Positions 5,465 through 49,039 of a stretch of 64,000 nucleotides of DNA are shown here, in pieces; the first letter of the stretch is position 1, and each line of letters begins with the position of its first letter. The stretch lies in sequence record MF402939; one strand, given 5' to 3'. The DNA comes from Escherichia phage OSYSP. A program made the position numbers and the translations under genes. Below the pieces are notes generated by a model. That model did no database searches, was not told the DNA's origin, and saw only the letters and a list, made by a program, of their open reading frames with translations.

Positions 5465-5468
5465 AATA

Positions 5469-6882: not shown

Positions 6883-6891
6883 ATAATTCAT

Positions 6892-7077: not shown

Positions 7078-7104
7078 GCTTGTTTCCTCAGTTATTAATG
7101 AAAA

Positions 7105-7177: not shown

Positions 7178-7179
7178 TT

Positions 7180-7262: not shown

Positions 7263-7269
7263 TAAAATT

Positions 7270-7523: not shown

Positions 7524-7760
7524 TTACTCTCCAGTAGGATTATCTAAGGTATACTGAGTAGCTACTCCAGCTACATCTAGCAGACTTCCCATATTCCTAA
7601 TAACTCTAGAGATTGCGTCACCTTCGGCAGTTTCTGTAAACACCTTAAGTCTTAAGAAATCGCCACCACCATCCATACCAGAGAAAATATTTAGTAAGCG
7701 AAGCATTACCAACTTACGTTCATTCAATTCTTGTTCTGTCATGTTGCTTCTCCAGTTCAA
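7524..7760 (-). CDS. hypothetical protein (78 aa)
   Basis: ORF track; GGAGA SD. Confidence 0.6.
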   Translation of the reverse strand: MNWRSNMTEQELNERKLVMLRLLNIFSGMDGGGDFLRLKVFTETAEGDAISRVIRNMGSLLDVAGVATQYTLDNPTGE

Positions 7761-7792
7761 TTTATGTAATTATTATATAGAACTTTTGGAAA

Positions 7793-8065
7793 CTAAGCAA
7801 CTACATTTTTTAAGAATTTGATGCCTTTCTTTTTCTTCTTATATTTCCACGTTAATGGATTTTGTCGATTATGAACGCTTGAGATCTTTGTCTCGTCAAA
7901 GTTCTTCAATATCATGTAATCACAGGATAATTGTTCTAGTGGAATGTGATCACCGTCAAAAGCGTATACATAAGGCTGTTGACTAGCACGATAATGATAG
8001 ACTTTGTTAATTCTACGTTTCAGCGACTTATCCGCGCAGTAAATAAAGAAGTTTTCAGGATGCAT
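7793..8065 (-). CDS. hypothetical protein (about 90 aa)
   Basis: ORF track ORF 7793-8080 trimmed to internal ATG (MHPENFF...) that has AGGAG at 6-nt spacing; the first ATG abuts the tRNA 3' end. Confidence 0.5.
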   Translation of the reverse strand: MHPENFFIYCADKSLKRRINKVYHYRASQQPYVYAFDGDHIPLEQLSCDYMILKNFDETKISSVHNRQNPLTWKYKKKKKGIKFLKNVVA

Positions 8066-8082
8066 CAGCATCTCCTTCAATT

Positions 8083-8157
8083 TGGTGCACCCTGTTCGAA
8101 TTGAACGAACCTCTCAAGCTCTTCAGGCAAGCGCTAATCCATCTCAGCTAAAGGTGC
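8083..8157 (-). tRNA. tRNA, probable anticodon GAA (Phe?), weak anticodon stem
   Basis: Acceptor GCACCTT/AGGGTGC, T-arm GTTCG-TTCAATT-CGAAC, loop CTGAAGA at standard positions 32-38 but stem has two T-T mismatches; CCA encoded. Confidence 0.4.
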
Positions 8158-8163
8158 AAATTT

Positions 8164-8234
8164 TGGCAGGGGTAAAGGTATTCGAAACCTTTTCATGGGT
8201 TTTGGAGGCCCATTTGCAACCTATGCGTACCCCA
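8164..8234 (-). tRNA. tRNA-Trp (anticodon CCA), compact D-arm
   Basis: T-arm AAGGT-TTCGAAT-ACCTT, anticodon arm TGGGC-CTCCAAA-ACCCA, 3' TACCCCT-G-CCA; T1-T72 mismatch. Confidence 0.45.
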
Positions 8235-8243
8235 ATTGTTAAT

Positions 8244-8318
8244 TGGCACACCCACGGAGAATTGAACTCCGATTCTCAGATTGAAATCCTGATGTCCTAG
8301 CCATTAGACGATAGGTGC
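8244..8318 (-). tRNA. tRNA-Glu (anticodon TTC)
   Basis: Acceptor GCACCTA/TGGGTGT (G-U pairs), anticodon arm TCAGG-ATTTCAA-TCTGA, T-arm CGGAG-TTCAATT-CTCCG, CCA encoded. Confidence 0.6.
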
Positions 8319-8326
8319 ATTAAATT

Positions 8327-8414
8327 TGGTGGGCGTTAATGGAGTCGAACCACTCGAGTCGCAATGACCAGGGATTTACAATCCCCTCCGCTACCACTTA
8401 CGGAATAAACGCCC
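8327..8414 (-). tRNA. tRNA-Tyr (anticodon GTA), type II
   Basis: Acceptor GGGCGTT/AACGCCC, anticodon arm GGGGA-TTGTAAA-TCCCT, long variable arm, T-arm TGG-TTCGACT-CCA, CCA encoded. Confidence 0.7.
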
Positions 8415-8542
8415 ATATTTAGAAGCATTCAAATACTTGTTTAAACACTTTTAAATATGTTTCCAAATTAGATAACTATTATATCAAGTTTTAAGGCACT
8501 GAGCAAGTCAGATTTTGAAGAACTTGCTCAGTGCTGTATTAG

Positions 8543-8818
8543 TTAGTCGAACTTAGGAGTGACAATTAAAGAGAATGGGAGTTCGAAAACTTCTTCACCC
8601 TCATTACTAACAGTAACTACACGACCTTTAAGTTCAGACATTGAAATATCAATATCAGCTTTTGCATCTGGAGCCATTCCAGCTTCAACACATTTAGCTT
8701 TAACTTCCGGAAGGAGTTCTACATCGTAGAAATAAAGCCATTCAATCTCACCTTCCCAGCCTTCCCAGGATTTACAGATTGCACTTTCAATACCAGTTGC
8801 TATAACACGATTTTGCAT
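8543..8818 (-). CDS. hypothetical protein (91 aa)
   Basis: ORF track; AGGAG SD; followed on minus strand by a 13-bp-stem hairpin (about 8470-8515). Confidence 0.6.
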   Translation of the reverse strand: MQNRVIATGIESAICKSWEGWEGEIEWLYFYDVELLPEVKAKCVEAGMAPDAKADIDISMSELKGRVVTVSNEGEEVFELPFSLIVTPKFD

Positions 8819-8908
8819 TCGTTAACTCCTTCATCAATTTATATAACTATTATATCAGAAATTTAAAGTAAAAGGCAAGTACATTTTTAAAAATTCTGTT
8901 CGGAGGAG

Positions 8909-9115
8909 CTAAACTCCAGATTCTTCGGCCAAGTCTAGACTAATAAGAGTTATAGCCATAATTGCTGCACCGTGTTCTTTTTCTCCGGTGTTTTTAGCAG
9001 AGCCTATAATATCCTTAATCTGTTCGTAATAACTTTTTACTTCTTGTTCAATGCCTGCCTCGGCTATCATGCCTTTAGTCATGAATCGTTGCATGGTAAT
9101 TTCAGGATTAGCCAT
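8909..9115 (-). CDS. hypothetical protein (68 aa)
   Basis: ORF track; ATG overlaps stop of upstream small ORF (ATGGCTAA). Confidence 0.55.
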   Translation of the reverse strand: MANPEITMQRFMTKGMIAEAGIEQEVKSYYEQIKDIIGSAKNTGEKEHGAAIMAITLISLDLAEESGV

Positions 9116-9275
9116 GTTGTTTCTCCAGTTTCATTTTTAATAGTTTACAGATGAAATCAACGTCTTCATCTGTGCCTAAGTCTCTATCTTCAAGGGTCGC
9201 CTTGAAGTTTTTCGTCAATTCCATAAGGATGACTTCCCTAGAACGACGTGTTGGTGGCGGAGGAGGTCTATACAT
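9108..9275 (-). CDS. small proline-rich hypothetical protein (55 aa)
   Basis: Not in ORF track; ATG with AAGGA SD; stop overlaps next start; translation MYRPPPPPTRRSREV... Confidence 0.4.
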   Translation of the reverse strand: MYRPPPPPTRRSREVILMELTKNFKATLEDRDLGTDEDVDFICKLLKMKLEKQHG

Positions 9276-9290
9276 CTTAATTCCTTAATT

Positions 9291-9367
9291 TGGTAGGGGT
9301 GGTGGGATTCGAACCCACAAAACCTGAATTTTAAGTCCAGTACCTATGCCAATTCGATTACACCCCC
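9291..9367 (-). tRNA. tRNA, anticodon TAA (Leu UUA reader?) with short variable arm
   Basis: Acceptor GGGGGTG/CACCCCT, anticodon arm CTGGA-CTTAAAA-TTCAG, T-arm GTGGG-TTCGAAT-CCCAC, discriminator A, CCA encoded; 77 nt. Confidence 0.45.
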
Positions 9368-9474
9368 ATGTAATCAGTTTATTAGTTGATACATATTATA
9401 GCCTAAAGAAAACCCTACTACTAATCCTACGAACCAACCAATATAATAATCTTTTAATTTCACGGGTGTCAACC

Positions 9475-9654
9475 TCATTCAATATCTAGAGAAATACCAC
9501 AGGTAGGATTAATGCCTGTGCCTTTGCACGTAGGACAAACCCAGATATTACAGAATGTATCCCCTGCTTCTGCATCAGAACTTTCTCCAACTCCTAGACA
9601 GTCAGGACAGGCACATTCTTCTAGCTCTTGCTTGAGTTCTTGAAACTTAGACAT
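9475..9654 (-). CDS. small zinc-ribbon protein (59 aa, two CxxC pairs)
   Basis: Not in ORF track; ATG with AAGGA SD; translation MSKFQELKQELEECACPDCLG...CPTCKGTG. Confidence 0.45.
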   Translation of the reverse strand: MSKFQELKQELEECACPDCLGVGESSDAEAGDTFCNIWVCPTCKGTGINPTCGISLDIE

Positions 9655-9663
9655 ATAGTTTCC

Positions 9664-9852
9664 TTATTCAATTACTTTTGAGGCTTCAAGGGAGTCGATA
9701 TAGTGTACGTTTTCTACCATAATCATATAATCTGCCACTTTATCCATAGCCTGAACTTCAGAGGTAGCCCTGGCTAACCTATATCCTTTTTTATATTCAT
9801 CCGGGTATTCCCTATCTGGAATAAACACAACACAAACTAGGTATAGTTCCAC
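9664..9852 (-). CDS. hypothetical protein (62 aa)
   Basis: ORF track. Confidence 0.45.
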   Translation of the reverse strand: MELYLVCVVFIPDREYPDEYKKGYRLARATSEVQAMDKVADYMIMVENVHYIDSLEASKVIE

Positions 9853-9873
9853 TTGTAACCTCTCTAATCAAGA

Positions 9874-9951
9874 TGGTGGCTCCCCGAGGATTCGAACCTA
9901 CGTACCTTCCGGTTATGAGCCGGGTGCTCATACCATATGAGCTTGAGAACC
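9874..9951 (-). tRNA. tRNA, anticodon CAT, initiator-like anticodon arm
   Basis: Acceptor GGTTCTC/GGGAGCC, anticodon arm CCGG-CTCATAA-CCGG followed by GAAGG as in initiator tRNA; T-stem imperfect; CCA encoded. Confidence 0.45.
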
Positions 9952-9957
9952 AGAATT

Positions 9958-10046
9958 TGGCGGAAGAAGTGGGAATCGAACCCACAAGGCTATATTTCAA
10001 ACCGACAGATTAGCAATCTGCTGCAATACCGTTATGCTATTCTTCC
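9958..10046 (-). tRNA. tRNA-Ser (anticodon GCT), type II
   Basis: Acceptor GGAAGAA/TTCTTCC, anticodon arm GCAGA-TTGCTAA-TCTGT, long variable arm, T-arm GTGGG-TTCGATT-CCCAC, CCA encoded. Confidence 0.65.
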
Positions 10047-10067
10047 GAATTTATAAGATATATTATA

Positions 10068-10586
10068 TTAGAAATTTAGCTTCATAGCAAGAAAATTTTT
10101 CAAGTTTTCGGTAGACATCTCATCCACATCTACAGGAGAAACAAATCCATTTAATTGTCTAGCAAATTTTTCACCAGCAGGATCATTATCCCCAACAGCT
10201 ACCAATTTAAAAGGTAGTAATTTCAATTGCTTTAACAACGCTTTTCCTGGAGAAGAACCCAACATTGCCAGGGCTGGATAACCAGCGTTATGTAATGCTA
10301 CTGCCTTAAATACAGATTCAGCAATCAATACTACTTTTTCATCCCCAGTGAGGGTTTCTAGCCCCCATACACACTGTGTAGTAGAATAAGTAAAATATCT
10401 AGCTTCAAAGGGGCACTTACCATGACCTTTTGGAGCAGAAGGATTATACGTCTGATAGCCTCTCAACATCCCAGAGAAGTCATACAATGGGACTGTTAGC
10501 CATCCTTCCGGACTTAACCAGCAATGATACTTATCTGTATCAAACCCTCTAGATAAGAGATGTTCTGTTAGTTCATCAACAGTCAT
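10068..10586 (-). CDS. small Toprim-domain protein (about 172 aa)
   Basis: Start moved to ATG (MTVDEL...) after GAGAGAGG SD, because the first ATG of track ORF 10068-10637 lies inside the promoter; motifs IAESV...GSS...LVAVGDNDPAGEKFA match a Toprim fold. Confidence 0.6.
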   Translation of the reverse strand: MTVDELTEHLLSRGFDTDKYHCWLSPEGWLTVPLYDFSGMLRGYQTYNPSAPKGHGKCPFEARYFTYSTTQCVWGLETLTGDEKVVLIAESVFKAVALHNAGYPALAMLGSSPGKALLKQLKLLPFKLVAVGDNDPAGEKFARQLNGFVSPVDVDEMSTENLKNFLAMKLNF

Positions 10587-10616
10587 ATTAGATTCCTCTC
10601 TCAAATTTATAAATAT

Positions 10617-10645
10617 ATTATACAGAGAATTTAGCATTCAAGCAA
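10617..10645 (-). promoter_or_regulatory. sigma70-type early promoter (TTGCTT-17-TATAAT) with downstream ATAAATTTGAGAGAGG box
   Basis: Consensus hexamers and conserved downstream element on minus strand. Confidence 0.65.
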
Positions 10646-10761
10646 TTGAATTTTTTAACTTTTTAGAGGAAAATCATAGGATGCTTAAGGGTAGCAGGTA
10701 AGTGATCAGGACCGAAATTTGTGACCCCACTAAAAATCTGGGGGCAATTTTTAAAGACCCC

Positions 10762-10790
10762 TTGACATTTTCGCCGGGGTAATGTAAAGT
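10762..10790 (+). promoter_or_regulatory. sigma70-type promoter (TTGACA-17-TAAAGT) for the plus-strand low-complexity cassette
   Basis: Perfect -35 hexamer, 17-nt spacer, 4/6 -10; about 60 nt upstream of AGGAGG-ATG at 10853. Confidence 0.55.
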
Positions 10791-10852
10791 ATATGTTATG
10801 GATGAGTGATCAAAGAGACACACATTTTCTATATACTAGGAGGTGTCAAAAA

Positions 10853-11833
10853 ATGACAGAAGAAGTAGCTAAGAGTCCTGAAACCGTCGCTAGCGTAGCA
10901 GCAGAACTGCATCGTCACGAGGAATCAGATAAGAAAAAGTGGGAGAAAGTCAAAGCCTACGAGGAAAAACATCGTGAACACGATGAAGATGATGAAGAAG
11001 ATGACGATGATGAACATTGTCATAAATATGGAAAACATAAAATGCAAGAACCAGTAAACGTATTTACTAACGGCTTCCCTGGCATGGGTGCATTCCCAGC
11101 TAACGCAAGTGCTTTCGGTGGAGAAGGTATGGGTCTATTCGGAGCTATCCTAATCGGTGCTCTATTAACAGGCGGATTTGGTGGTTTTGGTGGTTTTGGT
11201 CGCGGTGCTGGCGTTGCCGCTGAAGGGACTGCTGTGGACGCGATCCTTTCTAACCAAGATACTGCAAGTATTCTAGCTGCAATCAATACTACTCGTACAG
11301 AAGCTAACCAGGGCACTGGGGCTGTTCTAAGCGCAGTAAACGGTGTGGGAGCTGCTCAAGCTGCTAGCACTCAGCAAGTTCTGACTACTGTCTACGGTAC
11401 AGGTGCTAATCTGTCAAACCAGATCTGTGCTGAAACTCGTAACGTTATTCAGGGTCAGTTCGATCTTTCTCGTCAGATGGATCAATCTTTCGCTGCTAAC
11501 CAGATAGCACGTGCTCAAGATAAGTTTGACTCTGCTCAGATTGCTTTCCAGCAGTCTATTCAGACTAACAACCAGTTCGCCGCTGTTCAGGCTCAGATGT
11601 GTGCTAACCAGAACGCTATCGAACGTCAGCTTGCTGAATGTTGCTGTGAGCTTCAGACTGCGATCGCTGGTGTAACTACTGCGCGTATTCAGGACGAACT
11701 GAATGAATGCCGTCTGCGTGAAGCAATCGCTCAAGGTAGTGGTGCAAATGGTCAGGTAATCAACCAAATCGCTGTAAGTCTTGGTGCTATCACTCAGACT
11801 CTGGCTGGTCTGCAGGCTAAACTGCCGGCTTAA
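10853..11833 (+). CDS. low-complexity protein (326 aa): acidic/His-rich N-terminus, Gly-rich hydrophobic segment, Ala/Gln/Asn-rich C-terminal domain
   Basis: Start set at ATG after AGGAGG (9-nt spacing) rather than track start 10793; segments EDDEEDDDDEHCHKYGKHK, GLFGAILIGALLTGGFGGFGGFGRGAG and CCC triplet; ctg/cgt/gct-biased codons; opposite strand to neighbours. Confidence 0.7.
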   Translation: MTEEVAKSPETVASVAAELHRHEESDKKKWEKVKAYEEKHREHDEDDEEDDDDEHCHKYGKHKMQEPVNVFTNGFPGMGAFPANASAFGGEGMGLFGAILIGALLTGGFGGFGGFGRGAGVAAEGTAVDAILSNQDTASILAAINTTRTEANQGTGAVLSAVNGVGAAQAASTQQVLTTVYGTGANLSNQICAETRNVIQGQFDLSRQMDQSFAANQIARAQDKFDSAQIAFQQSIQTNNQFAAVQAQMCANQNAIERQLAECCCELQTAIAGVTTARIQDELNECRLREAIAQGSGANGQVINQIAVSLGAITQTLAGLQAKLPA

Positions 11834-11854
11834 AATTAAGGGGAGGAGCCCATT

Positions 11855-12271
11855 ATGAGTAAATATGGTTTTGTAAACAACGGATTTAATCAACAAATGG
11901 GCTCCCAGCAGCCCGTTCCGGGTCTGGATAATCCTTACCTACAACAGTTGCAACAGCGTTTAGCAGAAGCTCAACAGATGCAGCAACAACTCCAGCAAAA
12001 CCCTGGAAGTGTGAGTCCTATGCAAATGATGCAGCAAATGAGCGGGCAGTCGCAAATGCCTCAACAAATGCAGCAACAGGTGCCTCAGCAGCAAGTTCAG
12101 CAACAAACCCAACAACCGCAGGTTTCTGCGGAAGGACAGGCAGTACTAGCCCTTTTCGAAGATTTCGCAAAGACAGAGGATGGGAAACAGCTTGTATCAC
12201 TTATGGGTAAGTTTAATAGCTTCTGCCAAAGCCAAGTTGCAAAAGCTCAAAATGGTGATAATAACTCCTAA
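11855..12271 (+). CDS. glutamine-rich low-complexity protein (138 aa)
   Basis: ORF track; AAGGGGAGGAG SD; long Q/M-rich tracts (QQMQQQLQQ...QQMQQQVPQQQVQQQTQQPQ). Confidence 0.65.
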   Translation: MSKYGFVNNGFNQQMGSQQPVPGLDNPYLQQLQQRLAEAQQMQQQLQQNPGSVSPMQMMQQMSGQSQMPQQMQQQVPQQQVQQQTQQPQVSAEGQAVLALFEDFAKTEDGKQLVSLMGKFNSFCQSQVAKAQNGDNNS

Positions 12272-12280
12272 GGAGGAATT

Positions 12281-12475
12281 ATGTGTTGCAGAAAATCTGT
12301 TTCGTGCTGCCCAATGCCTGTAGCACGTTGTTGCTCTCCAGCAATGTTTACACAAATACCGGCGTTCAATCCCTTTGCCTTTAAGCCTATTCTTATCCTG
12401 CCCCCTAGAGTAGATTTTCAGTCAAGATTGGCCTCCCGTATGGGTGGTTGCTGTAACAAGAGTATATGGTTCTAA
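12281..12475 (+). CDS. small cysteine-rich protein (64 aa; CC doublets)
   Basis: ORF track; AAGGAGG SD; MCCRKSVSCCPMPVARCCSP...GGCCNKS; followed by an intrinsic terminator. Confidence 0.55.
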   Translation: MCCRKSVSCCPMPVARCCSPAMFTQIPAFNPFAFKPILILPPRVDFQSRLASRMGGCCNKSIWF

Positions 12476-12490
12476 AGAACCAAACAATAA

Positions 12491-12526
12491 AGCCCCTAGT
12501 CGAAAGACTTAGGGGCTTTTTCTTTT
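12491..12526 (+). terminator. rho-independent terminator ending the plus-strand cassette
   Basis: Hairpin AGCCCCTAG-loop-CTAGGGGCT followed by a T-run. Confidence 0.7.
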
Positions 12527-12536
12527 GCCTTAAATA

Positions 12537-12571
12537 CAGAAAAGCCCGCGCTCTCGGAGAAAACGCGGGCT
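12537..12571 (-). terminator. rho-independent terminator after the SPFH gene
   Basis: Hairpin GCCCGCG-loop-CGCGGGC followed by TTTT on minus strand; convergent with the previous terminator. Confidence 0.6.
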
Positions 12572-12595
12572 TAGTTCGAAGATTACGTGTAACTA

Positions 12596-13543
12596 TTACT
12601 TGTTACGCATATCCATGATCATTTGACCATCATAGCCAGTGCCAACTACAGTCTGAGGTACACCACCTTGATATTTCTGAGCACGAATCATCTCAACTTC
12701 CAGTTGTTTCCAACGAATCATCTCAGGAGTAATGGTACGTTGCAGTGCGGCGTTAGCTTCAGCTTCTTTCTTAGCTGCGTACAGTTTAGCATCTGCGTCA
12801 CGTTCATTAGCAATAGCTTGGTTATTGCGAGCTTCACGATCTGCTTCTGCTTGTTTAACTTTTTGCTGTGCTTCCTGTTCAACGCGGGCAAGTTCAGCTT
12901 TCGCAGCGTTAACTTGCTCTTCACGAACTTTGGTATTCTGTACCTGTTCCATGATTACCGGTGGCAAAGTAATATCTTGAAGAAACACCTGCTTAACTGT
13001 GTAACCATATGGGCGTGCATACTCTTCAACTTCCTGTTGAATTGCAGTTTGCAATTGAGCCTGAATTTTAGCATCAAACAAATCTTGTGCTTTAGGTACA
13101 GACTTACCAAACTCACAAATAGTAGATAGTAATTTTTCAGTTACATATTTGTCTAACGCTTGATCCTGAGTACCTGCATTAATACGGTTAATCGGTGCCT
13201 TAGAACCATCAAACTGCAACATAACAGTCAGATCAACAGTGGATTTAAACTTATCCTGACTAGGAACCTGAAGTTTATCTAATTTTACAGCAATATCTTT
13301 TGTACTAAAAGTATCGAAAGATGCAAACGGGTTTACAATATGGAAACCAGGTAATACTGGATTAGGGTCTACTTTACCCAGGAATGTTTGAGTTTTAACC
13401 GTACCATCAGAAACAATAGTATATGAATTAAAAGCTAGGATTAAACCTGCTAAACCAACTACAGCACCAATACCCCAACGTTTAATAGTGCGAATTACTT
13501 TTTGCTCAGAAGTCAGTTCTTTCATATTTTTAGTATTAAACAT
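12596..13543 (-). CDS. SPFH/band-7 (HflK/HflC-like) membrane protein
   Basis: 315 aa; N-terminal hydrophobic helix (IGAVVGLAGLILAF), then SPFH-like core and long Ala/Glu/Gln-rich coiled coil; AAGGA SD. Confidence 0.6.
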   Translation of the reverse strand: MFNTKNMKELTSEQKVIRTIKRWGIGAVVGLAGLILAFNSYTIVSDGTVKTQTFLGKVDPNPVLPGFHIVNPFASFDTFSTKDIAVKLDKLQVPSQDKFKSTVDLTVMLQFDGSKAPINRINAGTQDQALDKYVTEKLLSTICEFGKSVPKAQDLFDAKIQAQLQTAIQQEVEEYARPYGYTVKQVFLQDITLPPVIMEQVQNTKVREEQVNAAKAELARVEQEAQQKVKQAEADREARNNQAIANERDADAKLYAAKKEAEANAALQRTITPEMIRWKQLEVEMIRAQKYQGGVPQTVVGTGYDGQMIMDMRNK

Positions 13544-13580
13544 ATATTTCCTTTGTTTTAGTTACAGTTAATAAAATTGA

Positions 13581-13652
13581 CCGAGGTGACAGGATTCGAA
13601 CCTGCATAAAGGAATTTAGAAGACTCCTGCCTCTCCCTTAGACTACACCCCG
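13581..13652 (-). tRNA. tRNA-Arg (anticodon TCT), CCA not encoded
   Basis: Acceptor CGGGGTG/CACCTCG, anticodon arm GGAGT-CTTCTAA-ATTCC, T-arm GCAGG-TTCGAAT-CCTGT. Confidence 0.55.
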
Positions 13653-36954: not shown

Positions 36955-37365
36955 ATGACTACTCCAACTCAGTGGACTGATGAACTGTTCGAAAAAATGT
37001 CTTCCGAATACGTTGCTCGTATGGAGCAATTCCCAGAGGATGAACGTCCGGGTGTTAGCATGGAAATTGTTAGCGAAATTGCCCAGGAAAATGGTGTAAC
37101 TCCGAACGGTTTTCGTATGAAGCTGACTAAAGCAGGTTTGTATATCAAGAAAGCTGCTGGTTCTACTTCTAAATCTAGCGCATCTACTGGAGAAAAAGCT
37201 TCCGGTGGTTCTCGTACCTCCAAAGCCCAAGCTCATGCTGATCTTCGTTCAGCATTCTCTGATGCTGGCTTAGCGCCAGATTTTCTGGATGATGCAATTA
37301 TCGACAAACTGACCGGTAAAGCGGCTGCTCATCTGGCAGAAGCAATCCGAGCTATCACTAAGTAA
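36955..37365 (+). CDS. hypothetical protein (136 aa) with Ser/Thr/Ala-rich linker
   Basis: ORF track; AAGGA SD; ctg/cgt/gct-biased codons. Confidence 0.65.
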   Translation: MTTPTQWTDELFEKMSSEYVARMEQFPEDERPGVSMEIVSEIAQENGVTPNGFRMKLTKAGLYIKKAAGSTSKSSASTGEKASGGSRTSKAQAHADLRSAFSDAGLAPDFLDDAIIDKLTGKAAAHLAEAIRAITK

Positions 37366-38144: not shown

Positions 38145-39116
38145 ATGACTAATGTAAAAGAATTTATTAAACGCTGTCAAGAAGCATATTATCAAGGCAT
38201 GTCTTTAATCTCTGATGAGGAGTATGATCGCCTGGTAAAACGCTTCCCGTTAGAGGAAGAGATCGGGCCTAAGGGTGATATTCCACATCTATATCGTATG
38301 TATTCTTTACAGAAAGTTTACTATAACCGTGGAGATAAACCACCATTCAATCCTTTAGGTCAGGTGGAAACCGATAAGTTAGATGGTTGTGCAATTTCTC
38401 TGCTATATATTAATGGCGAATTTGTTCAAGCACTAACTCGTGGTAATGGTATTCTGGGGAATGATGTCACAAGCAACGTAAGATTGCTGAACATTCCTAA
38501 AAAGATTTCCCAAAAAGTACCTACTCAAATCACTGGTGAAGTTCTAATTACAAAAGAAGTAGAAAATAAACGTAACTTTGCCTCTGGTGCTATTAACCTC
38601 AAAGATAGCGATGCTTTCGTACAACGCATTGGAGAAGGCGGTTTAATCTTTGTTGCTTATGGTATCCAGTGTTCTGCTGAATCTGTAGGTATTACAGAAG
38701 CATATTTAAAAGATATGCTTTGGCTAGAGAATGAGAACTTCTTAACAGTCGTTAATGTGCGTTCCTTTTTTAAATGGATTCCGACGGACGGTAAAGTTGT
38801 TCGTATTAATGACAACAACAAATTCTTCCGCGAAGGCTGGACTAATAAATTCCCTCGTGGAGCATTCGCTATTAAAGAGGATGAAGAAGGCGAGATTACA
38901 ACTCTTACTAAAGTTGAATGGCAGGTAGGGGCTTCTGGTAAAGTAACTCCAGTTGGTTATTTCGAACCGGTAATTATTGATGATGCTACGATTGTTAAAG
39001 CGACTCTTAATAACGTTGATTATATTAACTCTCTCGATCTAGAGATCGGTTGCCAGATTCGAGTGATTCGTGCTGGTGGTGTAATCCCGTGCATAGTAGA
39101 GCGAGTATATGATTAA
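38145..39116 (+). CDS. NAD-dependent DNA ligase, N-terminal adenylation/OB-fold part (split ligase subunit A)
   Basis: 323 aa; adenylation-lysine motif KLDGCA and LigA-like N-terminal pattern; ends before Zn-finger/HhH/BRCT modules. Confidence 0.7.
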   Translation: MTNVKEFIKRCQEAYYQGMSLISDEEYDRLVKRFPLEEEIGPKGDIPHLYRMYSLQKVYYNRGDKPPFNPLGQVETDKLDGCAISLLYINGEFVQALTRGNGILGNDVTSNVRLLNIPKKISQKVPTQITGEVLITKEVENKRNFASGAINLKDSDAFVQRIGEGGLIFVAYGIQCSAESVGITEAYLKDMLWLENENFLTVVNVRSFFKWIPTDGKVVRINDNNKFFREGWTNKFPRGAFAIKEDEEGEITTLTKVEWQVGASGKVTPVGYFEPVIIDDATIVKATLNNVDYINSLDLEIGCQIRVIRAGGVIPCIVERVYD

Positions 39117-39166: not shown

Positions 39167-39195
39167 TTGACATTTTCGCCGCTTAGGTATATACT
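39167..39195 (+). promoter_or_regulatory. sigma70 promoter (TTGACA-17-TATACT) between ligase parts
   Basis: Hexamers read directly. Confidence 0.55.
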
Positions 39196-39259: not shown

Positions 39260-39289
39260 TTGCTAAATGCTTAAATACTTGCTATAATA
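39260..39289 (+). promoter_or_regulatory. sigma70 promoter (TTGCTA-18-TATAAT) between ligase parts
   Basis: Consensus hexamers. Confidence 0.6.
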
Positions 39290-39318
39290 TTTATATAAAT
39301 TGATAAGGAAGAAATTTG

Positions 39319-40095
39319 ATGAAAATCGAAATTCCAACACAATGTCCCTCTTGTGGTTCTAAGCTAGATCTTGTCAACGGACAATTATTCTGTCGTAATA
39401 AGTCCAACTGTCCAGCGCAATCAAGTAAGTTAATTGAGAACTTCTGTACAAAAATGAAGTTAAAGGGCTTTGGCCCGAAAACTATTGAAAAGCTGGAGCT
39501 GACTAAGATTTCAGAACTATTTTACCTAACCGAAGAAGATTTGGTTAGAGCCGTGGGTAGCAAGGTTGCCGCTAAGTTAATTAGCGAATTAAATACTAAA
39601 GTTCGTGGAGACATTGACTTTGGTTCAGTTCTCGGTTCTTTAGGAATCCCTCTAATTGGAGAGGTTGCAGCAAAGAAATTGTCCCAAAATTGCACCAGTT
39701 TTCAAGATGTGAGAGCTGATGGCAAAGCTGGAGAAAACTATAAAGCCTGGCTAAATTCCCCACAAGGCAAGGATGTTATCGAATTACCGTGGAAATTCTC
39801 AAATGGTATTAAGGGTGCTAAAGCTGACATCATTACTGATGGTCTAGTAGCCCAACCAAACGGAATAACGGTGTGTATTACCGGATCTTTGCAAGATTTT
39901 GCAAATCGAACGGATGCAACAAACTATTTAGAAGGTCTAGGATACACGGTTAAGAAATCCGTTACCAAAGACGTCAAATACCTAATCTGTGAGGATGAAT
40001 CGAAGCGTTCTTCCTCATCTTATAAGAAAGCCGAAACGAATGGGATAGAAATCCTGTCGATTAAAGAACTATTGGAGAAAAATAATAATGTCTAA
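39319..40095 (+). CDS. NAD-dependent DNA ligase, C-terminal part (Zn-finger, HhH, BRCT-like; split ligase subunit B)
   Basis: Start at ATG after AAGGAAG; N-terminal CPSCGS...C..KSNCP zinc finger as found after the OB-fold in LigA. Confidence 0.65.
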   Translation: MKIEIPTQCPSCGSKLDLVNGQLFCRNKSNCPAQSSKLIENFCTKMKLKGFGPKTIEKLELTKISELFYLTEEDLVRAVGSKVAAKLISELNTKVRGDIDFGSVLGSLGIPLIGEVAAKKLSQNCTSFQDVRADGKAGENYKAWLNSPQGKDVIELPWKFSNGIKGAKADIITDGLVAQPNGITVCITGSLQDFANRTDATNYLEGLGYTVKKSVTKDVKYLICEDESKRSSSSYKKAETNGIEILSIKELLEKNNNV

Positions 40096-40855
40096 ACTGA
40101 ACTGGAACGTAGAAGGTGTAACCGAGTCTCTGAAAGCAAAAGCCACTGCTCTGGGTGTTGCTGTAATCTCTCAAGAACAAGTAGCTGCTATCGCTGCTGA
40201 ACTGGCTGCTGAAACTGGCAAAGACGTTACCGCTCGCTCTGTTGGCTCTAAGCTGCGTAAAGAAGGTTTCGAAGTACAGAAAGCTAACGAAGTACAGAAA
40301 TCTCCGTGGACTCCTGAGCAGGAAGCTGAACTGGTTGATTTCCTGAACGCTCATGCTGGTCAGTATACCTATGCTGAAATCGCTGCTGCTGTAGCTGGTG
40401 GTCAATTTGGTGCTAGGCAGGTACAGGGTAAGATCCTGAGTCTGGAAATGACCGCTTCTGTTAAACCAACTGAAAAAGCAGCTGCTGTTCGTTCCTTCAC
40501 TCCTGATGAAGAAACTGATTTTGTTAATCAGGTTGTTGCTGGTGCTACTATTGAAGCTATCGCTGCTCACTTCGGTCGTAATATCAAGCAGATCCGTGGT
40601 AAAGCTCTGAGCCTGCTTCGTGAAGGTCGTATCGCTGCTATGCCGGTACAGGAAACTTCAAGTGCTAAAACTCGTGAAGATCTGCTAGAAGGTCTGGATC
40701 TGGTTAACATGACCGTTGCTGAGATCGCTGAGAAAACTGGTAAGTCTGAGCGTGGTGTTAAATCTATGTTGTCTCGTCGTGGTCTGGTTGCTAAGGACTA
40801 TGATGGTGCCGCTAAGCGTGCTAAACTGGATGCAAAAGCTGCGGCTGCTGAATAA
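40088..40855 (+). CDS. hypothetical protein (255 aa) with three internal HTH-like repeats
   Basis: ORF track; GGAGAAAAA SD; repeated segments (EIAAAV..., IEAIAAHFGRNIKQIRGKALSLLREGRI, VAEIAEKTGKSERGVKSMLSRRGLV); strongly biased codon usage. Confidence 0.7.
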   Translation: MSKLNWNVEGVTESLKAKATALGVAVISQEQVAAIAAELAAETGKDVTARSVGSKLRKEGFEVQKANEVQKSPWTPEQEAELVDFLNAHAGQYTYAEIAAAVAGGQFGARQVQGKILSLEMTASVKPTEKAAAVRSFTPDEETDFVNQVVAGATIEAIAAHFGRNIKQIRGKALSLLREGRIAAMPVQETSSAKTREDLLEGLDLVNMTVAEIAEKTGKSERGVKSMLSRRGLVAKDYDGAAKRAKLDAKAAAAE

Positions 40856-40874
40856 TCTGGTAAATTAAACCTAA

Positions 40875-40905
40875 GGGGAGGGGGCTATGCTCCTTCCCCT
40901 TTTTG
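40875..40905 (+). terminator. strong rho-independent terminator (10-bp stem, loop CTATG, TTTTT)
   Basis: GGGGAGGGGG-CTATG-CTCCTTCCCC-TTTTT; the first ATG of track ORF 40887 lies in the loop. Confidence 0.7.
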
Positions 40906-40937
40906 CATTTAGAAGGCACGAAAGCGTGCAAAGGAGA

Positions 40938-42410
40938 ATGACCTTGTTTAACGTGCAAGCTGTAGTGTTGAAGATGCTTCTAGCTTCCGAACAGAAGCAA
41001 ATAGCATTGGAAACATTCTCAAAACTGCATAAAGATCATTTTAATGACGCTTTCTCCTCAATTTACCAAGCCGTCCAGAATTATTATAAAAAATATAACA
41101 CAATGCCGTCCATTGACGCACTGATGCTTGAGGCTAATAGGAACGCCCGCCTTTCTCAAGCTCTAGTCGTTTTAGCTAACACTCAAATTCCAGAAGTTAG
41201 CATGGAACAGGCACTTGAAGTCCTAGAGGCCGAGTATACACAGGATTTATTCCTGAAGCTTCTAGAAACAGACGTGCTTCAAGATTTAACAATGCTGGAT
41301 CAGGGAGAAATTCTTAACCGAGTTGCCTCCCTTCACTTAAAATTAGAAGAGAAAGTAACGAATACTGGAAAAGTATTCAACGCAGATAATATGCGTATTT
41401 TCCAGAGAGAAGAAGATACCAAACTGAACTTAATCGCTCTTGGTATTTGTAATGAGTTCGACGCTCAAATTGGTTTAGCTCGCACAGAAACGTTACTGCT
41501 TGGTGGTTGGCGTGGTACTGGTAAATCCATTATCTGTTCAAACATACAGGTTCAGCAATATTTGAATGGGGATATTGCTCCATACTTCTCAATTGAGATG
41601 AAAGAACATGAAGTATTTAGACGTAATCTAGCCATGTTAGCTGGTGTATCAGCACTAGCAATGCGTAATAATACTCTAGAAGGTGCAGCTCTGTTGAGAT
41701 TAGCCAGAACTAGAGCTAGGATGTTTAACGGTGGTGAAGAGCTCTTCGATAACTTCGTTAAACAGTATACAATGGCTAAGATGAGTGATTTCTACGACAT
41801 GGAGAGTAAGCTAATAGAAGGGTATGAGCTACATACTCCTATGATTATTGTTTATGACCCTGAGCTGTCTATTACAACAGTTGACGTAGAATTAAATAAA
41901 TTAGTTGCTAGATATGGGGATAAAGTTACAGTAGCTTTACTGGACTATATTAACCAAACCCGACTTCCAGACTCTAAAACCATTGATATGTATGACTGGA
42001 AAGAACAGATGGTTGTTAGCTCGTCTTTCAAATCTATCTGCCAGAAACATAACGTGGCTGGTGTAGCTCCTTACCAGATTGATCAAGATGGTAGAACACG
42101 TATGTCAAAAGGGATTCTTGATTCCGCAGACATGGCTGCTAATCTTAATGCTGCAAAAGCTGATAATGGTCAAGGTGCTATTATGTTTGACTTCGTTAAG
42201 ACTCGTTCTTCTGATAGCGTGAAGTTTATGCCTAAAATGAACTGGGAAACCCTGCGGATGGATAACACTACCAACCTAGCAATGGAAGATATATCTCAAA
42301 TGGAAGCTGAGTTCGTTATCCCTATTGAGAAGGATAAGCCGGCTCAATCTAAACGTGCTAAGAAAGACAAAGCTGAAAATTCAACAGGTGAACAGGCCAG
42401 CGATATATGA
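40938..42410 (+). CDS. DnaB-like replicative helicase
   Basis: Walker A GGWRGTGKS and RecA-like core; start uncertain (ATG 40938 after AAAGGAGA, or ATG 40887 inside the terminator hairpin). Confidence 0.7.
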   Translation: MTLFNVQAVVLKMLLASEQKQIALETFSKLHKDHFNDAFSSIYQAVQNYYKKYNTMPSIDALMLEANRNARLSQALVVLANTQIPEVSMEQALEVLEAEYTQDLFLKLLETDVLQDLTMLDQGEILNRVASLHLKLEEKVTNTGKVFNADNMRIFQREEDTKLNLIALGICNEFDAQIGLARTETLLLGGWRGTGKSIICSNIQVQQYLNGDIAPYFSIEMKEHEVFRRNLAMLAGVSALAMRNNTLEGAALLRLARTRARMFNGGEELFDNFVKQYTMAKMSDFYDMESKLIEGYELHTPMIIVYDPELSITTVDVELNKLVARYGDKVTVALLDYINQTRLPDSKTIDMYDWKEQMVVSSSFKSICQKHNVAGVAPYQIDQDGRTRMSKGILDSADMAANLNAAKADNGQGAIMFDFVKTRSSDSVKFMPKMNWETLRMDNTTNLAMEDISQMEAEFVIPIEKDKPAQSKRAKKDKAENSTGEQASDI

Positions 42411-43297
42411 GTAGAATAACAGAACTACTTGATCTGAAAGGCATTGAATATAAAGACACAGGTGGGGACATCCTCATCTGTTGTCTCAATCCAGATCATG
42501 ACGATAAACACCCAAGTTTGCGTATTGACCCTGAAACAGGTATTATGCACTGCTTGAGTTGTGGCTTCGGTAAAGGTATACCGAGCATTTACCATTATTT
42601 TAATGAGACTCAGTACCGACAGTCCCCAAGGCTATCGCAAGTACGTAAAAAGATTTCAGAGATTAGGAATGGATCAACGAATCTTGCAATTCCTGAATCT
42701 GCTTACCTTTTCGAAGGTGATTTCCGAGGTATAAGTTCTAAGACCTTGAAGAAATATTTTGCTTTCCAACACCAAGCAGACTGGGAAGGCAGAATTGTAT
42801 TCCCAATCACAGATGCTGTTGGACGCAATATCCTATTTTTGGGTCGTTCTATAAACAGTTCTGCCCCTCCTAAATACTTAGTAAAACCAAAACAAGTTTC
42901 ACCGCCAATTTTTCCTGTACGATATAATACTCCAGTCCTTATTCTAGTTGAAGGCATCTTTGATATGCTGAACCTAGAGGATAATGGTATAGACTATGCT
43001 TCTTGCTGCTTTGGTACACATCAGTTTACTTCGGATAACATTGCAGATAAGTTCAGTCCTTATATTATCGCCGGTGTAAAAGTTGTTGTTATCTTACTAG
43101 ATAATGATGCTTCTGGTAATAAAGCTGCCCAGGCTCTAGCAAAATTAATTCGTACAAAAACACGTTTAACACCTGTAGTTGCTAACTTCTTACTTCCAGA
43201 GGGTAAGGATCCTGGTGATTTAAATAAAGAAGAAGTCGATACGTTAGCAAAACGTATTGAAATTTTAGTTGCTGAATCACTTAAAGATTTGGTATAA
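42407..43297 (+). CDS. DnaG-like DNA primase (zinc-binding plus Toprim)
   Basis: 296 aa; zinc motif CCLNPDHDDKHPS...HCLSCGFGKG; Toprim motifs ILVEGIFDML and LLDNDASGNKAAQ; ATGA overlap with helicase. Confidence 0.8.
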   Translation: MSRITELLDLKGIEYKDTGGDILICCLNPDHDDKHPSLRIDPETGIMHCLSCGFGKGIPSIYHYFNETQYRQSPRLSQVRKKISEIRNGSTNLAIPESAYLFEGDFRGISSKTLKKYFAFQHQADWEGRIVFPITDAVGRNILFLGRSINSSAPPKYLVKPKQVSPPIFPVRYNTPVLILVEGIFDMLNLEDNGIDYASCCFGTHQFTSDNIADKFSPYIIAGVKVVVILLDNDASGNKAAQALAKLIRTKTRLTPVVANFLLPEGKDPGDLNKEEVDTLAKRIEILVAESLKDLV

Positions 43298-47988: not shown

Positions 47989-48273
47989 ATGCTTACGGAG
48001 CCTGATGCTCACCAATTATTGGTCGGTTCCTCATTCATTTTGAATGAATCAACAATAGTTGATAATCCAAATAAATTGTCTAATAGACAACTGGCAGAAT
48101 ATCTAGGAATTTTAAGTCTACGAAATTATGCCGAATACAAGTTTACAAACGATCCTAGTTTGGACATACAATATGTTCCAGTATGGATACCACGTTTAGT
48201 AATCGACACTAACCCACTAATCGCAATTAACAAATCGAAATTAATCTTTAAAGAGGAAATAAAATATGGCTAA
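47989..48273 (+). CDS. hypothetical protein (94 aa), doubtful
   Basis: ORF track only; no SD; overlaps start of next gene. Confidence 0.25.
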   Translation: MLTEPDAHQLLVGSSFILNESTIVDNPNKLSNRQLAEYLGILSLRNYAEYKFTNDPSLDIQYVPVWIPRLVIDTNPLIAINKSKLIFKEEIKYG

Positions 48274-49039
48274 GTCTTGGGGCGAAACTACTGGCGGTTC
48301 TAACGATAAAATCGAATTCCTGAAGTTCAACAACGGTATCACTCGTGTTCGTATCGTTTCTGGTGTTCTTCCACGTTATGTCTATTGGCTGACTAATAAA
48401 GAGGGTAGCGTAGCTCCTTTCGAATGTCTCCGTTTTAACCGTGACAAAGAGAGTTTTGTTCGTGGTAAAGCTGATCCGGTTCATGAGATGGGCTTCTTTG
48501 AGAAAGAGCTGGATAAAGATGGTAATCGCGTTCCGCTGAAACCGAAGAAAAACTATATCGCTTTTGTTATCGACCGTTCTGATAACAAACTGAAAGTAAT
48601 GGAAGTCAAAGCTACTATTCTGAAAGGCATCCAGTCTATCATGAAGCAGTTGAATCTGGCAACTCCGTTTGATATTGATATTTCTATCGAGAAAAAAGGT
48701 AAAGGTTTCGATACTGAGTATGATGTACAGCAGATTGCTGCTATGCAGTTCCAGATTAAGCTGCAAGATCCTAACAGTGCAGAATCTAAGCAATATGCTG
48801 CGGATGTAGATCTGATTGGTGAAGCTATGTGTGACGAAGATGGCGACATCATTAAGTTCGAAAAAGTTCCTTCTCTGGAACAAACTTATCCGGTTCCTAC
48901 CTATGAAGAGCAGAAAGAAGCAATTCAAGCCTTCATGGAAGGTCGTGAGAATAAAGATGATGATGCCAAGTCTGGTAACAGCACTGCTGGTTCCCAGAAA
49001 GGTATTGATCACGAAGCTGCAAGCGATCTGGATGACTAA
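48266..49039 (+). CDS. putative ssDNA-binding protein (acidic C-terminal tail)
   Basis: 257 aa; strong SD AAAGAGGAAA; highly biased codons; acidic C-terminus ...HEAASDLDD typical of phage SSBs; function inferred. Confidence 0.7.
   Translation: MAKSWGETTGGSNDKIEFLKFNNGITRVRIVSGVLPRYVYWLTNKEGSVAPFECLRFNRDKESFVRGKADPVHEMGFFEKELDKDGNRVPLKPKKNYIAFVIDRSDNKLKVMEVKATILKGIQSIMKQLNLATPFDIDISIEKKGKGFDTEYDVQQIAAMQFQIKLQDPNSAESKQYAADVDLIGEAMCDEDGDIIKFEKVPSLEQTYPVPTYEEQKEAIQAFMEGRENKDDDAKSGNSTAGSQKGIDHEAASDLDD

What the first reader, a model, noticed from the sequence alone, without database searches (positions are those of the whole stretch)
40088..40855. Highly codon-biased protein with three HTH-like repeats
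The 255-aa protein has three internally similar segments resembling helix-turn-helix units and strongly biased codon usage, suggesting an abundant DNA-binding or transcription-modulating protein, possibly a host RNA polymerase modifier for the early-to-late switch.
Basis: inference. Interest (0 to 1): 0.35.

Follow-up and report, generated by a model that had tools for sequence, protein, structure and literature searches.

The report
Phage T5 D5 DNA-binding protein gene
This gene is the already-known D5 protein of bacteriophage T5 (253 of 255 residues identical), a DNA-binding protein needed for phage DNA replication and late transcription, so the finding is real but ordinary.

Summary
The ORF 40088..40855 (+, 255 aa) is real. 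It is 253/255 identical to T5.118, the gene D5 product of phage T5, and has the same neighbours: ligA, ligB, D5, a DnaB-like helicase, then primase. The codon bias is real and extreme. Its CAI with E. coli weights is 0.69, the highest of 60 window ORFs (median 0.28). Its ENC is 31.4, the lowest. ligB overlaps its start but has CAI 0.23.

The internal repeats exist, but there are four, not three. A confident AlphaFold2 model (pLDDT 93.5) shows three complete three-helix HTH units, a fourth lacking helix 1, and a C-terminal helix. Only units 2 and 3 are clearly similar in sequence (hhalign 96%, E 2e-9). Fourteen of 20 family-invariant residues lie in the four third helices (P = 5e-8). The best fold matches are Myb-repeat arrays, and no solved homologue exists.

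The one Pfam hit above cut-off (Sigma70_r4_2) covers only the HTH core of unit 4. There is no sigma region 2, so it is not a sigma factor.

"RNA polymerase modifier" is unsupported.

Novelty: already known. Interest: low.

The parts
40088..40855 (+). D5 coding sequence (255 aa, 27.1 kDa, pI 6.8), ortholog of T5.118
   Evidence: ORF list. 253/255 identical to the T5 D5 protein. phrog_323 'transcriptional regulator, D5-like', E 4e-71. 512 phage records cover at least 80% of the gene.
40100..40285 (+). HTH unit 1 (aa 5-66): helices 11-22, 29-43, 49-58. Invariant residues W6, R50, K55, L56, R57.
   Evidence: AF2 model. Alignment A1. The profile matches the engrailed homeodomain at E 0.0045. Pfam HTH_33 at 16.1 bits, below cut-off.
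40304..40465 (+). HTH unit 2 (aa 73-126): helices 76-88, 95-101, 109-118. W74 is nearly invariant; E97, Q113, G114, K115 and L117 are invariant.
   Evidence: hhalign of unit 2 against unit 3 gives 96%, E 2.3e-9. Pfam Myb_DNA-binding at 17.6 bits, below the 24.4 cut-off.
40493..40645 (+). HTH unit 3 (aa 136-186): helices 139-150, 155-162, 166-178. Invariant residues E156, G171, K172, L174.
   Evidence: Pfam HTH_23 at 21.8 bits, below the 24.6 cut-off.
40673..40804 (+). HTH unit 4 (aa 196-239): no helix 1 is predicted; helices 210-217 and 221-231. Invariant residues G223, L228, R231.
   Evidence: Pfam Sigma70_r4_2 at 28.7 bits, above the 25.7 cut-off, but it covers only profile positions 23-49 of 54.
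40805..40852 (+). Conserved C-terminal helix (aa 240-254, AAKRAKLDAKAAAAE). G240 is invariant; D237 and K246 are nearly invariant. A role in self-association or partner binding is inferred only.
   Evidence: AF2 model and alignment A1. The function is inference.
40074..40077 (+). GGAG Shine-Dalgarno-like motif 10 nt upstream of the D5 ATG, inside the end of ligB. The D5 start overlaps the last 8 nt of ligB.
   Evidence: Read directly from the sequence. The same overlap is annotated in T5. A 14-nt overlap occurs in a marine relative.
39316..40095 (+). ligB (NAD-dependent DNA ligase subunit B), probably co-transcribed with D5 and overlapping it. CAI is only 0.23.
39167..39195 (+). Sigma-70-type promoter (TTGACA-17-TATACT, 11/12), probably the counterpart of T5 P-K28b, upstream of ligB-D5. 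The match to T5 rests on relative position, not on alignment.
   Evidence: Consensus scan. T5 annotates two promoters (P-K28b, P-K28a) in the same ligA-ligB gap. Activity was not tested.
39260..39288 (+). Sigma-70-type promoter (TTGCTA-17-TATAAT, extended -10 TG), probably the counterpart of T5 P-K28a. The match to T5 rests on relative position, not on alignment.
   Evidence: Activity was not tested.
40873..40908 (+). Intrinsic-terminator-like hairpin (13-bp stem, 8 G-C pairs, 3-nt loop, followed by TTTTTGCATTT) 18 nt after the D5 stop codon.
   Evidence: Scan. The RNA fold of 40853-40945 gives -33.9 kcal/mol, z -3.4. A hairpin with a T-rich tract also follows the D5 homologue in marine locus L002.

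Best explanation
This is the gene D5 ortholog of a T5-like phage (Demerecviridae, Tequintavirus-like). It sits in the early replication module. It is most likely transcribed with ligB from two strong sigma-70 promoters, with a hairpin terminator immediately downstream. Its codons are tuned to E. coli-type optimal codons, so it is probably made in far larger amounts than its operon partner.

The protein is a chain of four small Myb/homeodomain-like helix-turn-helix units plus a conserved C-terminal helix. Nearly all family-invariant residues lie on the third (recognition) helix of each unit.

The most likely mechanism is as follows. All four units contact duplex DNA in successive grooves, so one monomer covers a few helical turns. 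Many copies then coat phage DNA, in line with the dsDNA binding reported for T5 D5. This nucleoprotein state of the template then supports replication, shuts down early promoters and permits late transcription.

Shown here: identity with D5, synteny, codon bias, the four-HTH architecture and the clustering of conservation on the third helices.

Taken from the T5 annotation and literature: DNA binding and the requirement for replication and late transcription.

Inferred: multi-groove binding by all four units, coating of DNA, action at the template level, and any role of the C-terminal helix in cooperativity.
For: Identity: 253/255 to T5.118, with 16 synonymous and 2 non-synonymous codon differences. 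The T5 record note reads 'DNA-binding protein; required for DNA replication and late transcription; also is involved in shutoff...'. phrog_323, E 4e-71.

Synteny: the order ligA-ligB-D5-DnaB-like helicase-primase-PolA holds in T5 and in marine relatives at 52% identity.

Expression: CAI 0.69, against 0.23 for ligB and 0.26 for D6. The next two highest-CAI ORFs in the window are also DNA-binding proteins: D11, SSB-like (0.563), and D3 (0.562).

Architecture: pLDDT 93.5 with four HTH units. 14 of 20 invariant columns fall in the four third helices, which make up 17% of the residues (hypergeometric P = 5e-8). These helices carry net positive charge although the whole protein is near neutral.

Fold: the top PDB matches are multi-Myb arrays, SNAPc chains 7xur_A and 7zwc_c at probability 0.96-0.99.

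Abundance: a D5 homologue was among the most abundant proteins in mass spectrometry of phiR2-01 particle preparations (PMC8624392).
Against: No DNA-binding experiment can be run here, and the primary D5 papers of 1979-1983 are not in the held library.

Foldseek E-values against the PDB are weak, 5e-3 at best, with global TM about 0.2, because the arrangement of the domains is uncertain (pTM 0.54).

The protein has no net positive charge (pI 6.8), which is unusual for a DNA-coating protein.

The marine homologue shows no marked codon bias (ENC 41.5, mid-range among its neighbours). High expression is therefore inferred only for the enterobacterial phages.

Unit 4 lacks helix 1, and its sequence similarity to the other units is weak.
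Confidence: 0.85

Rival explanations
1. It is a phage sigma factor or sigma-region-4 mimic. It would bind host RNA polymerase core or the beta-flap and redirect it to late promoters, as the 'RNA polymerase sigma factor' annotation in phage Shivani and the first reader's RNAP-modifier idea suggest.
For: Pfam Sigma70_r4_2 scores 28.7 bits, above the curated cut-off of 25.7. Weaker Sigma70_r4 and r3 hits fall on the same stretch, aa 204-230. D5 is needed for late transcription in T5 (record note). The mechanism of the T5 early-to-late switch is still unknown (PMC7472727).
Against: The hit covers only profile positions 23-49 of 54, which is the generic HTH core. No Sigma70_r2 hit appears even at E up to 10. 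TIGR02937 (sigma70-ECF) scores 12.6 bits against a cut-off of 42.9. All T5 gene classes are reported to be transcribed by sigma-70 holoenzyme, and the proteins that co-purify with RNAP are of other sizes (PMC7472727). The other three units look like Myb or homeodomain units, not sigma regions. Extreme codon bias fits a stoichiometric DNA ligand better than an RNAP subunit.
Confidence: 0.05
2. It is a conventional sequence-specific transcription factor. It would recognise a defined operator at early and/or late promoters through its four HTH units, repressing early genes and activating late ones, rather than acting as a general DNA coat.
For: Tandem Myb or homeodomain-like arrays, such as the SNAPc chains that are the top fold hits, are typically sequence-specific. 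PHROGs files the family under 'transcription regulation'. The D5 phenotype includes early shutoff and late activation.
Against: The codon adaptation is the highest in the window. It is shared with the SSB-like D11 and with D3, which points to bulk, stoichiometric use. D5 sits in the replication module next to ligase, helicase and primase across distant relatives. From memory and not verified here, the classical biochemistry described cooperative binding to duplex DNA in general.
Confidence: 0.12
3. It is primarily a replisome accessory factor, a duplex-DNA clamp or organiser that acts with T5 DNA polymerase, helicase and ligase. The late-transcription defect of D5 mutants would then be an indirect result of failed replication.
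For: The position between ligB and the DnaB-like helicase, primase and PolA is conserved at 52% identity. The start overlaps ligB. The T5 record lists a requirement for DNA replication.
Against: This overlaps with the best explanation rather than excluding it. The T5 record also lists roles in late transcription and shutoff. Nothing in the sequence suggests an enzyme or a polymerase-interaction motif.
Confidence: 0.2

Closest known systems
Bacteriophage T5 gene D5 product (T5.118, YP_006946.1; PHROG 323 'transcriptional regulator, D5-like')
   Same: 253/255 residues are identical, the length is the same, the 8-nt overlap with ligB is the same, and so are the flanking genes. It is the same protein in a sister phage.
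   Different: Two substitutions (A25D, R110K). The window phage lacks the HNH endonuclease gene hegJ that T5 carries between D6 and the primase gene. Neither difference has any bearing on function.
Eukaryotic multi-Myb-repeat DNA-binding arrays (the SNAPc chains 7xur_A and 7zwc_c; spliceosome chain 7b9v_O; the Timeless DNA-binding domain 6taz). That these are the SNAP190/SNAPC4 and Cef1/CDC5 Myb repeats is my recollection, not stated in the tool output.
   Same: Tandem three-helix HTH units on one polypeptide. Each of units 1-3 starts with an aromatic residue followed by T/S-x-x-E. These are the best Foldseek matches in the PDB.
   Different: Sequence identity is only 16-22% and the E-values are weak (5e-3 and above). 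The Pfam Myb model scores below its cut-off (17.6 against 24.4 bits). Only one conserved aromatic residue per unit was noted in alignment A1 (W6, W74, F137), where canonical Myb repeats have three regularly spaced tryptophans (general knowledge). This is a fold resemblance, and membership is not demonstrated.
Sigma-70 region 4 (Pfam PF08281)
   Same: The HTH core of unit 4 scores above the curated threshold (28.7 bits).
   Different: There is no region 2 and no full region 4 (profile positions 23-49 only). It fails the sigma-70 family superfamily model. It is not a sigma factor.
Abundant phage 'histone-like' duplex-DNA-binding proteins that couple replication to the early-late switch: phi29 p6 and SPO1 TF1. 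This is a functional analogy from general knowledge; PMC4974454 reviews the phi29 DNA-binding proteins (seen).
   Same: They are small, very abundant early phage proteins that bind the phage's own duplex DNA and are needed both for replication and for temporal transcription control.
   Different: The folds are unrelated: as I recall, p6 has its own fold and TF1 is an HU-family protein, whereas D5 is a four-HTH array. The analogy concerns how it may work, not membership.

Membership tests
T5 D5 protein family (PHROG 323) | Full-length sequence homology to T5.118 | tested here: met
   99% identity over 255/255 aa. phrog_323 at E 4.1e-71, covering residues 1-253.
T5 D5 protein family (PHROG 323) | Position in the early replication module between ligB and the DnaB-like helicase | tested here: met
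   Window ORF order, T5 record and marine relatives L002-L004.
T5 D5 protein family (PHROG 323) | Binding to double-stranded DNA | not testable with these tools
   Only the T5 record note and a citation to McCorquodale et al. 1979 in PMC12630848. The primary paper is not held.
T5 D5 protein family (PHROG 323) | Requirement for phage DNA replication, late transcription and early shutoff | not testable with these tools
   T5 record note and PMC12630848.
Sigma-70 family sigma factors | Region 2 (core binding and -10 recognition) | tested here: not met
   No Sigma70_r2 hit at E up to 10 in Pfam. TIGR02937 scores 12.6 bits against a cut-off of 42.9.
Sigma-70 family sigma factors | Region 4 HTH (-35 recognition) | tested here: inconclusive
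   PF08281 scores 28.7 bits, above the 25.7 cut-off, but covers only profile positions 23-49 of 54 at aa 204-230. PF04545 scores 17.4 bits, below its 24.1 cut-off.
Myb/SANT (homeodomain-like) repeats | Three-helix bundle with the HTH formed by helices 2 and 3 | tested here: met
   AF2 model at pLDDT 93.5. Units 1-3 have three helices each and unit 4 has two.
Myb/SANT (homeodomain-like) repeats | Match to the curated Myb_DNA-binding profile at its threshold | tested here: not met
   PF00249 scores 17.6 bits against a cut-off of 24.4, and only on unit 2.
Myb/SANT (homeodomain-like) repeats | Structural similarity to solved Myb arrays | tested here: inconclusive
   7xur_A at E 5.1e-3, probability 0.96, TM 0.22. 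7zwc_c at E 2.9e-2, probability 0.99. The profile matches the engrailed homeodomain at E 0.0045.

The most novel reading that the evidence does not exclude
D5 may be a new structural class of phage chromatin protein. A single chain of four Myb/homeodomain-like HTH units would polymerise on phage duplex DNA, perhaps through its conserved C-terminal helix, and this template coating would itself be the missing early-to-late transcription switch of T5-like phages. The small D3 protein may carry a single paralogous unit and act alongside it.
Probability: 0.3. Interest if true: 0.45.

Novelty: already known. Interest (0 to 1): 0.15.

Why it matters
As a genome feature it is routine: a well-conserved, long-named gene of T5-like phages.

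There are two modest points of value.

First, public annotation of this gene is chaotic. Records call it 'hypothetical protein', 'RNA polymerase sigma factor' or 'D5 protein'. Labels such as 'single stranded DNA-binding protein' and 'endonuclease' also appear under the match, though the table does not say which gene they belong to. The analysis here shows which label is defensible and which is not: it is not a sigma factor.

Second, no solved structure of a homologue exists. The confident four-HTH model, with conservation focused on the recognition helices, gives concrete residues to mutate. That bears on a question still described as open, namely how T5 switches from early to late transcription (PMC7472727).

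Tried and rejected
(1) A single-sequence ungapped self-dot-plot did not exceed shuffles, so I used family profiles instead.

(2) Biopython's built-in Sharp E. coli index was missing.

(3) The sigma-factor reading was rejected because region 2 is absent and the region-4 match is partial.

(4) The DRT4 paper on a T5 'DNA binding protein' trigger concerns ORF55, not D5, and is irrelevant here.

(5) The primary D5 paper (PMC353123) is not held. Several literature queries failed on the three-character minimum for search terms or on the term limit. One query returned only unrelated papers.

(6) The antisense ORF 40061..40570 (169 aa, Ser-rich) matches no PHROG. I treat it as a shadow of the GCT-rich sense frame.

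(7) NCBIfam has no model for this family, and this Pfam copy has only generic HTH hits.

(8) The codon bias is not conserved in a marine homologue, so it is not a family-wide trait.

(9) I did not run the 1.84-billion-protein representative search or a metagenome scan, because the identity was already settled.

Full report
**What is there**

The + strand carries an ORF from ATG 40088 to the stop at 40853-40855, 255 aa. Its start overlaps the last 8 nt of the upstream ORF (39316..40095). A GGAG motif lies 10 nt upstream of the ATG.

The neighbours are a split NAD-dependent DNA ligase upstream (38145..39116 and 39316..40095). Downstream are a DnaB-like helicase (40887..42410) and a primase (42407..43297). 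The window also carries 23 tRNA genes at 899..13652 on the - strand. This is the layout of a T5-like phage.

**Identity**

Megablast of the ORF finds 514 phage records, and 512 of them cover at least 80% of it. Most are Salmonella, Escherichia and Klebsiella T5-like phages. The best is Salmonella phage SPLA5b at 99.1%.

In the T5 reference record (NC_005859) the syntenic gene is D5, T5.118. Its note reads [quoted passage not shown]. The window protein is 253/255 identical to it. At the DNA level there are 16 synonymous and 2 non-synonymous codon differences. PHROGs assigns it to phrog_323, "transcriptional regulator, D5-like", at E 4e-71.

The finding is therefore an already-named gene.

**Check of the codon-bias observation**

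Among 60 non-overlapping window ORFs of at least 80 aa, this one has the lowest effective number of codons: 31.4 against a median of 44.

It also has the highest CAI with E. coli highly-expressed-gene weights: 0.69 against a median of 0.28 and sd of 0.10.

The preference is for GCT (39/45 Ala), CTG (16/19 Leu), GGT (17/19 Gly), CGT (11/13 Arg) and ATC (9/10 Ile). The rest of the window uses CTG for only 16% of Leu and ATC for 24% of Ile.

The contrast with neighbouring genes is stark. ligB scores 0.23, D6 0.26 and the primase gene 0.235.

The next two highest-CAI ORFs are also DNA-binding proteins:
- 48266..49039 is D11, 255/258 translated positions (stop included) identical to T5.126, phrog "single strand DNA binding protein", CAI 0.563.
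- 36955..37365 is D3, 136/137 translated positions (stop included) identical to T5.113, phrog "DNA binding protein", CAI 0.562.

The bias is real. It groups D5 with proteins needed in stoichiometric amounts.

It is not a family-wide trait. A marine homologue at 52% identity has an ENC of 41.5, mid-range among its neighbours.

**Check of the repeat observation**

A single-sequence ungapped self-comparison is not above chance. The best 25-aa window scores 32, against shuffles of mean 26.4, sd 3.9 and max 39.

I built a 38-sequence family alignment (A1, down to 49% identity), cut it into four segments and compared them as profiles.
- Units 2 and 3 are clearly homologous (96%, E 2.3e-9).
- The other pairs are weak (5-64%, E 6e-5 to 7e-3).

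An AlphaFold2 model built on A1 is confident, with mean pLDDT 93.5 and no segment below 50. Its pTM of 0.54 means the arrangement between domains is not fixed. The model has:
- three-helix units at 11-22/29-43/49-58, 76-88/95-101/109-118 and 139-150/155-162/166-178;
- a two-helix unit at 210-217/221-231;
- a terminal helix at 240-254.

There are therefore four HTH-like units, not three.

Each unit attracts its own HTH-type Pfam hit: HTH_33, Myb_DNA-binding, HTH_23 and Sigma70_r4_2 respectively. Only the last exceeds a curated cut-off.

**Where the conservation lies**

Of the 20 columns invariant across A1, 14 fall in the four third helices. These are R50, K55, L56, R57; Q113, G114, K115, L117; G171, K172, L174; and G223, L228, R231. 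Those helices make up 44 of 255 residues (hypergeometric P = 5e-8).

These helices are net basic, although the protein as a whole is near neutral (pI 6.8, 27.1 kDa).

A recurring G-K-x-L signature marks helix 3 of units 1-3.

This is the pattern expected if every unit uses its recognition helix on nucleic acid.

**Comparison with known structures**

A profile search of PDB sequences finds nothing significant. The only notable hit is a marginal match of unit 1 to the engrailed homeodomain (E 0.0045).

Foldseek against the PDB gives no hit at E ≤ 1e-3. The best matches are multi-Myb arrays and related proteins:
- human SNAPc chains 7xur_A (E 5e-3, probability 0.96) and 7zwc_c (probability 0.99);
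- a yeast spliceosome chain (7b9v_O);
- the Timeless Myb-like DNA-binding domain;
- LuxR/NarL-type and transposase HTH pairs.

Against predicted viral structures, the only strong full-length match is the D5 protein of a Vibrio phage (E 9e-27).

D5 is thus a tandem array of homeodomain/Myb-like HTH units with no solved homologue.

**Not a sigma factor**

Some records label this gene "RNA polymerase sigma factor". The evidence does not support that label.
- The Sigma70_r4_2 hit (28.7 bits against a cut-off of 25.7) spans only profile positions 23-49 of 54, the generic HTH core of unit 4.
- No region 2 hit appears even at E up to 10.
- The NCBIfam sigma-70 superfamily model scores 12.6 bits against a cut-off of 42.9.

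A defining feature was tested and not met.

**Context and expression signals**

Two sigma-70-type promoters lie in the ligA-ligB gap: 39167-39195 (11/12 match) and 39260-39288 (10/12 with an extended -10). T5 annotates P-K28b and P-K28a in the same gap. The promoter scan as a whole is not enriched over shuffles, so the T5 annotation is the stronger evidence.

A 13-bp G+C-rich hairpin followed by a T-run lies 18 nt after the D5 stop (40873-40901). The fold of the region gives -33.9 kcal/mol, z -3.4.

The order PC4-like, ligA, ligB, D5, DnaB-like helicase, primase, PolA is kept in marine metagenomic relatives at 52% identity. Those relatives also keep the ligB/D5 overlap and a hairpin after D5.

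**Literature**

The held library does not contain the primary D5 papers.
- PMC12630848 cites McCorquodale et al. 1979 (J Virol 29:322) for D5 as a DNA-binding protein affecting replication and late gene expression.
- PMC7472727 states that all T5 gene classes are transcribed by sigma-70 holoenzyme and that the class-switching mechanism remains unknown. It lists RNAP-associated T5 proteins of 11, 15, 60 and 90 kDa plus gpT5.026. None of these has the size of D5.
- PMC8624392 found the D5 homologue among the most abundant proteins in mass spectrometry of phiR2-01 particle preparations. This fits an abundant protein that sticks to DNA.
- From my own memory and unverified here, Rice et al. 1979 (J Biol Chem) and Fujimura and Roop 1983 (J Virol) described cooperative binding of D5 to duplex DNA and effects on T5 DNA polymerase.

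**Most likely mechanism**

The steps below are marked as shown or inferred.
- D5 is probably co-transcribed with ligB from strong early promoters. Co-transcription is inferred from the overlap and the promoter and terminator positions. The promoters are supported only by a consensus match and the T5 annotation.
- It is translated very efficiently because of host-optimal codons. The bias is shown; the resulting abundance is inferred.
- The protein is a flexible chain of four HTH units. This rests on a confident model.
- Its conserved, basic third helices bind successive grooves of duplex DNA. This is inferred.
- Many copies coat phage DNA, perhaps through the conserved C-terminal helix. This is inferred.
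- The coated template supports replication, silences early promoters and allows late transcription. The phenotype comes from the T5 record; the link to coating is inferred.

Functionally this resembles phi29 p6 or SPO1 TF1, which have unrelated folds.

**Rivals**

The rival explanations, with my confidence in each, are:
- a sigma or RNAP-modifier role (0.05);
- a classical sequence-specific regulator (0.12);
- a mainly replisome-accessory role with indirect transcription effects (0.2, and not exclusive of the best explanation).

**Verdict**

The ORF and the codon bias hold, but there are four units rather than three, and only one pair is clearly similar in sequence.

[quoted passage not shown] holds; "RNAP modifier" does not.

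Novelty is "already known" and interest is low (0.15). The residual value is the four-HTH architecture and the list of residues to mutate, for a protein with no solved structure that sits at an unresolved regulatory switch.

Noticed in passing
window 36955..37365 (+), D3 ortholog: The 136-aa D3 protein (phrog_1725 'DNA binding protein', CAI 0.56) aligns over aa 3-69 with HTH unit 1 of the D5 family profile (hhalign 63%, E 7e-5, 25% identity). The shared pattern is W-T...I-A-x-E-x-G...K-L-x-K-x-G. It may be a single-unit paralogue of the D5 repeat.
   Followed up: partly
window 40873..40946 (+): The start codon annotated for the D6 helicase (ATG 40887) sits in the 3-nt loop of the strong hairpin that follows D5, and the purine-rich run upstream of it forms the 5' arm. 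Downstream, AAGGAG (40931-40936) precedes an in-frame ATG at 40938 (1-nt spacing) and an in-frame TTG at 40944 (7-nt spacing). Either D6 translation is throttled by the hairpin, or the true start is 17-19 codons downstream. The T5 record annotates no terminator here.
   Followed up: partly
window 36955..37365, 40088..40855, 48266..49039: The three ORFs best adapted to E. coli codon usage in the window are all DNA-binding proteins of the replication region: D3 0.562, D5 0.69 and the SSB-like D11 0.563, against a median of 0.28. The enzymes interleaved with them (ligase, helicase, primase) score 0.23-0.34.
   Followed up: yes
window 899..13652 (- strand): A cluster of 23 tRNA genes. The anticodons are mostly those that read A/U-ending codons (for example Leu-UAA, Leu-UAG, Arg-UCU, Gly-UCC, Ala-UGC). 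D5's preferred codons (CTG, CGT, GGT, GCT, ATC) largely match the major E. coli codons instead. This suggests D5 translation relies mainly on the host tRNA pool.
   Followed up: partly
phage records matched (e.g. KP143763.1 Shivani, MZ079855.1 vB_Kpn_3, OR413584.1 SPLA5b): The same gene at over 98% identity is labelled variously in public records as 'hypothetical protein', 'D5 protein' or 'RNA polymerase sigma factor'. 'Single stranded DNA-binding protein' and 'endonuclease' also appear among the features under the match, possibly on adjacent genes. The sigma-factor label is not supported by the membership test.
   Followed up: partly
window 42407 (D6/primase junction) compared with L001 14615-15148: T5 carries an HNH homing-endonuclease gene (hegJ, T5.120) between D6 and the primase gene. 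In this window the two genes abut directly, with a 4-nt overlap, so the endonuclease insertion is absent.
   Followed up: no
L002 8144-8509 (marine T5-like contig): In the marine relatives, a 121-aa protein with a SET domain (PF00856) lies between the DnaB-like helicase and the primase. An acyl-carrier-like PP-binding protein lies upstream in the same early region.
   Followed up: no
window 40061..40570 (- strand): A 169-aa Ser-rich antisense ORF overlaps D5. It matches no PHROG family and is most simply a by-product of the GCT-rich sense frame.
   Followed up: yes
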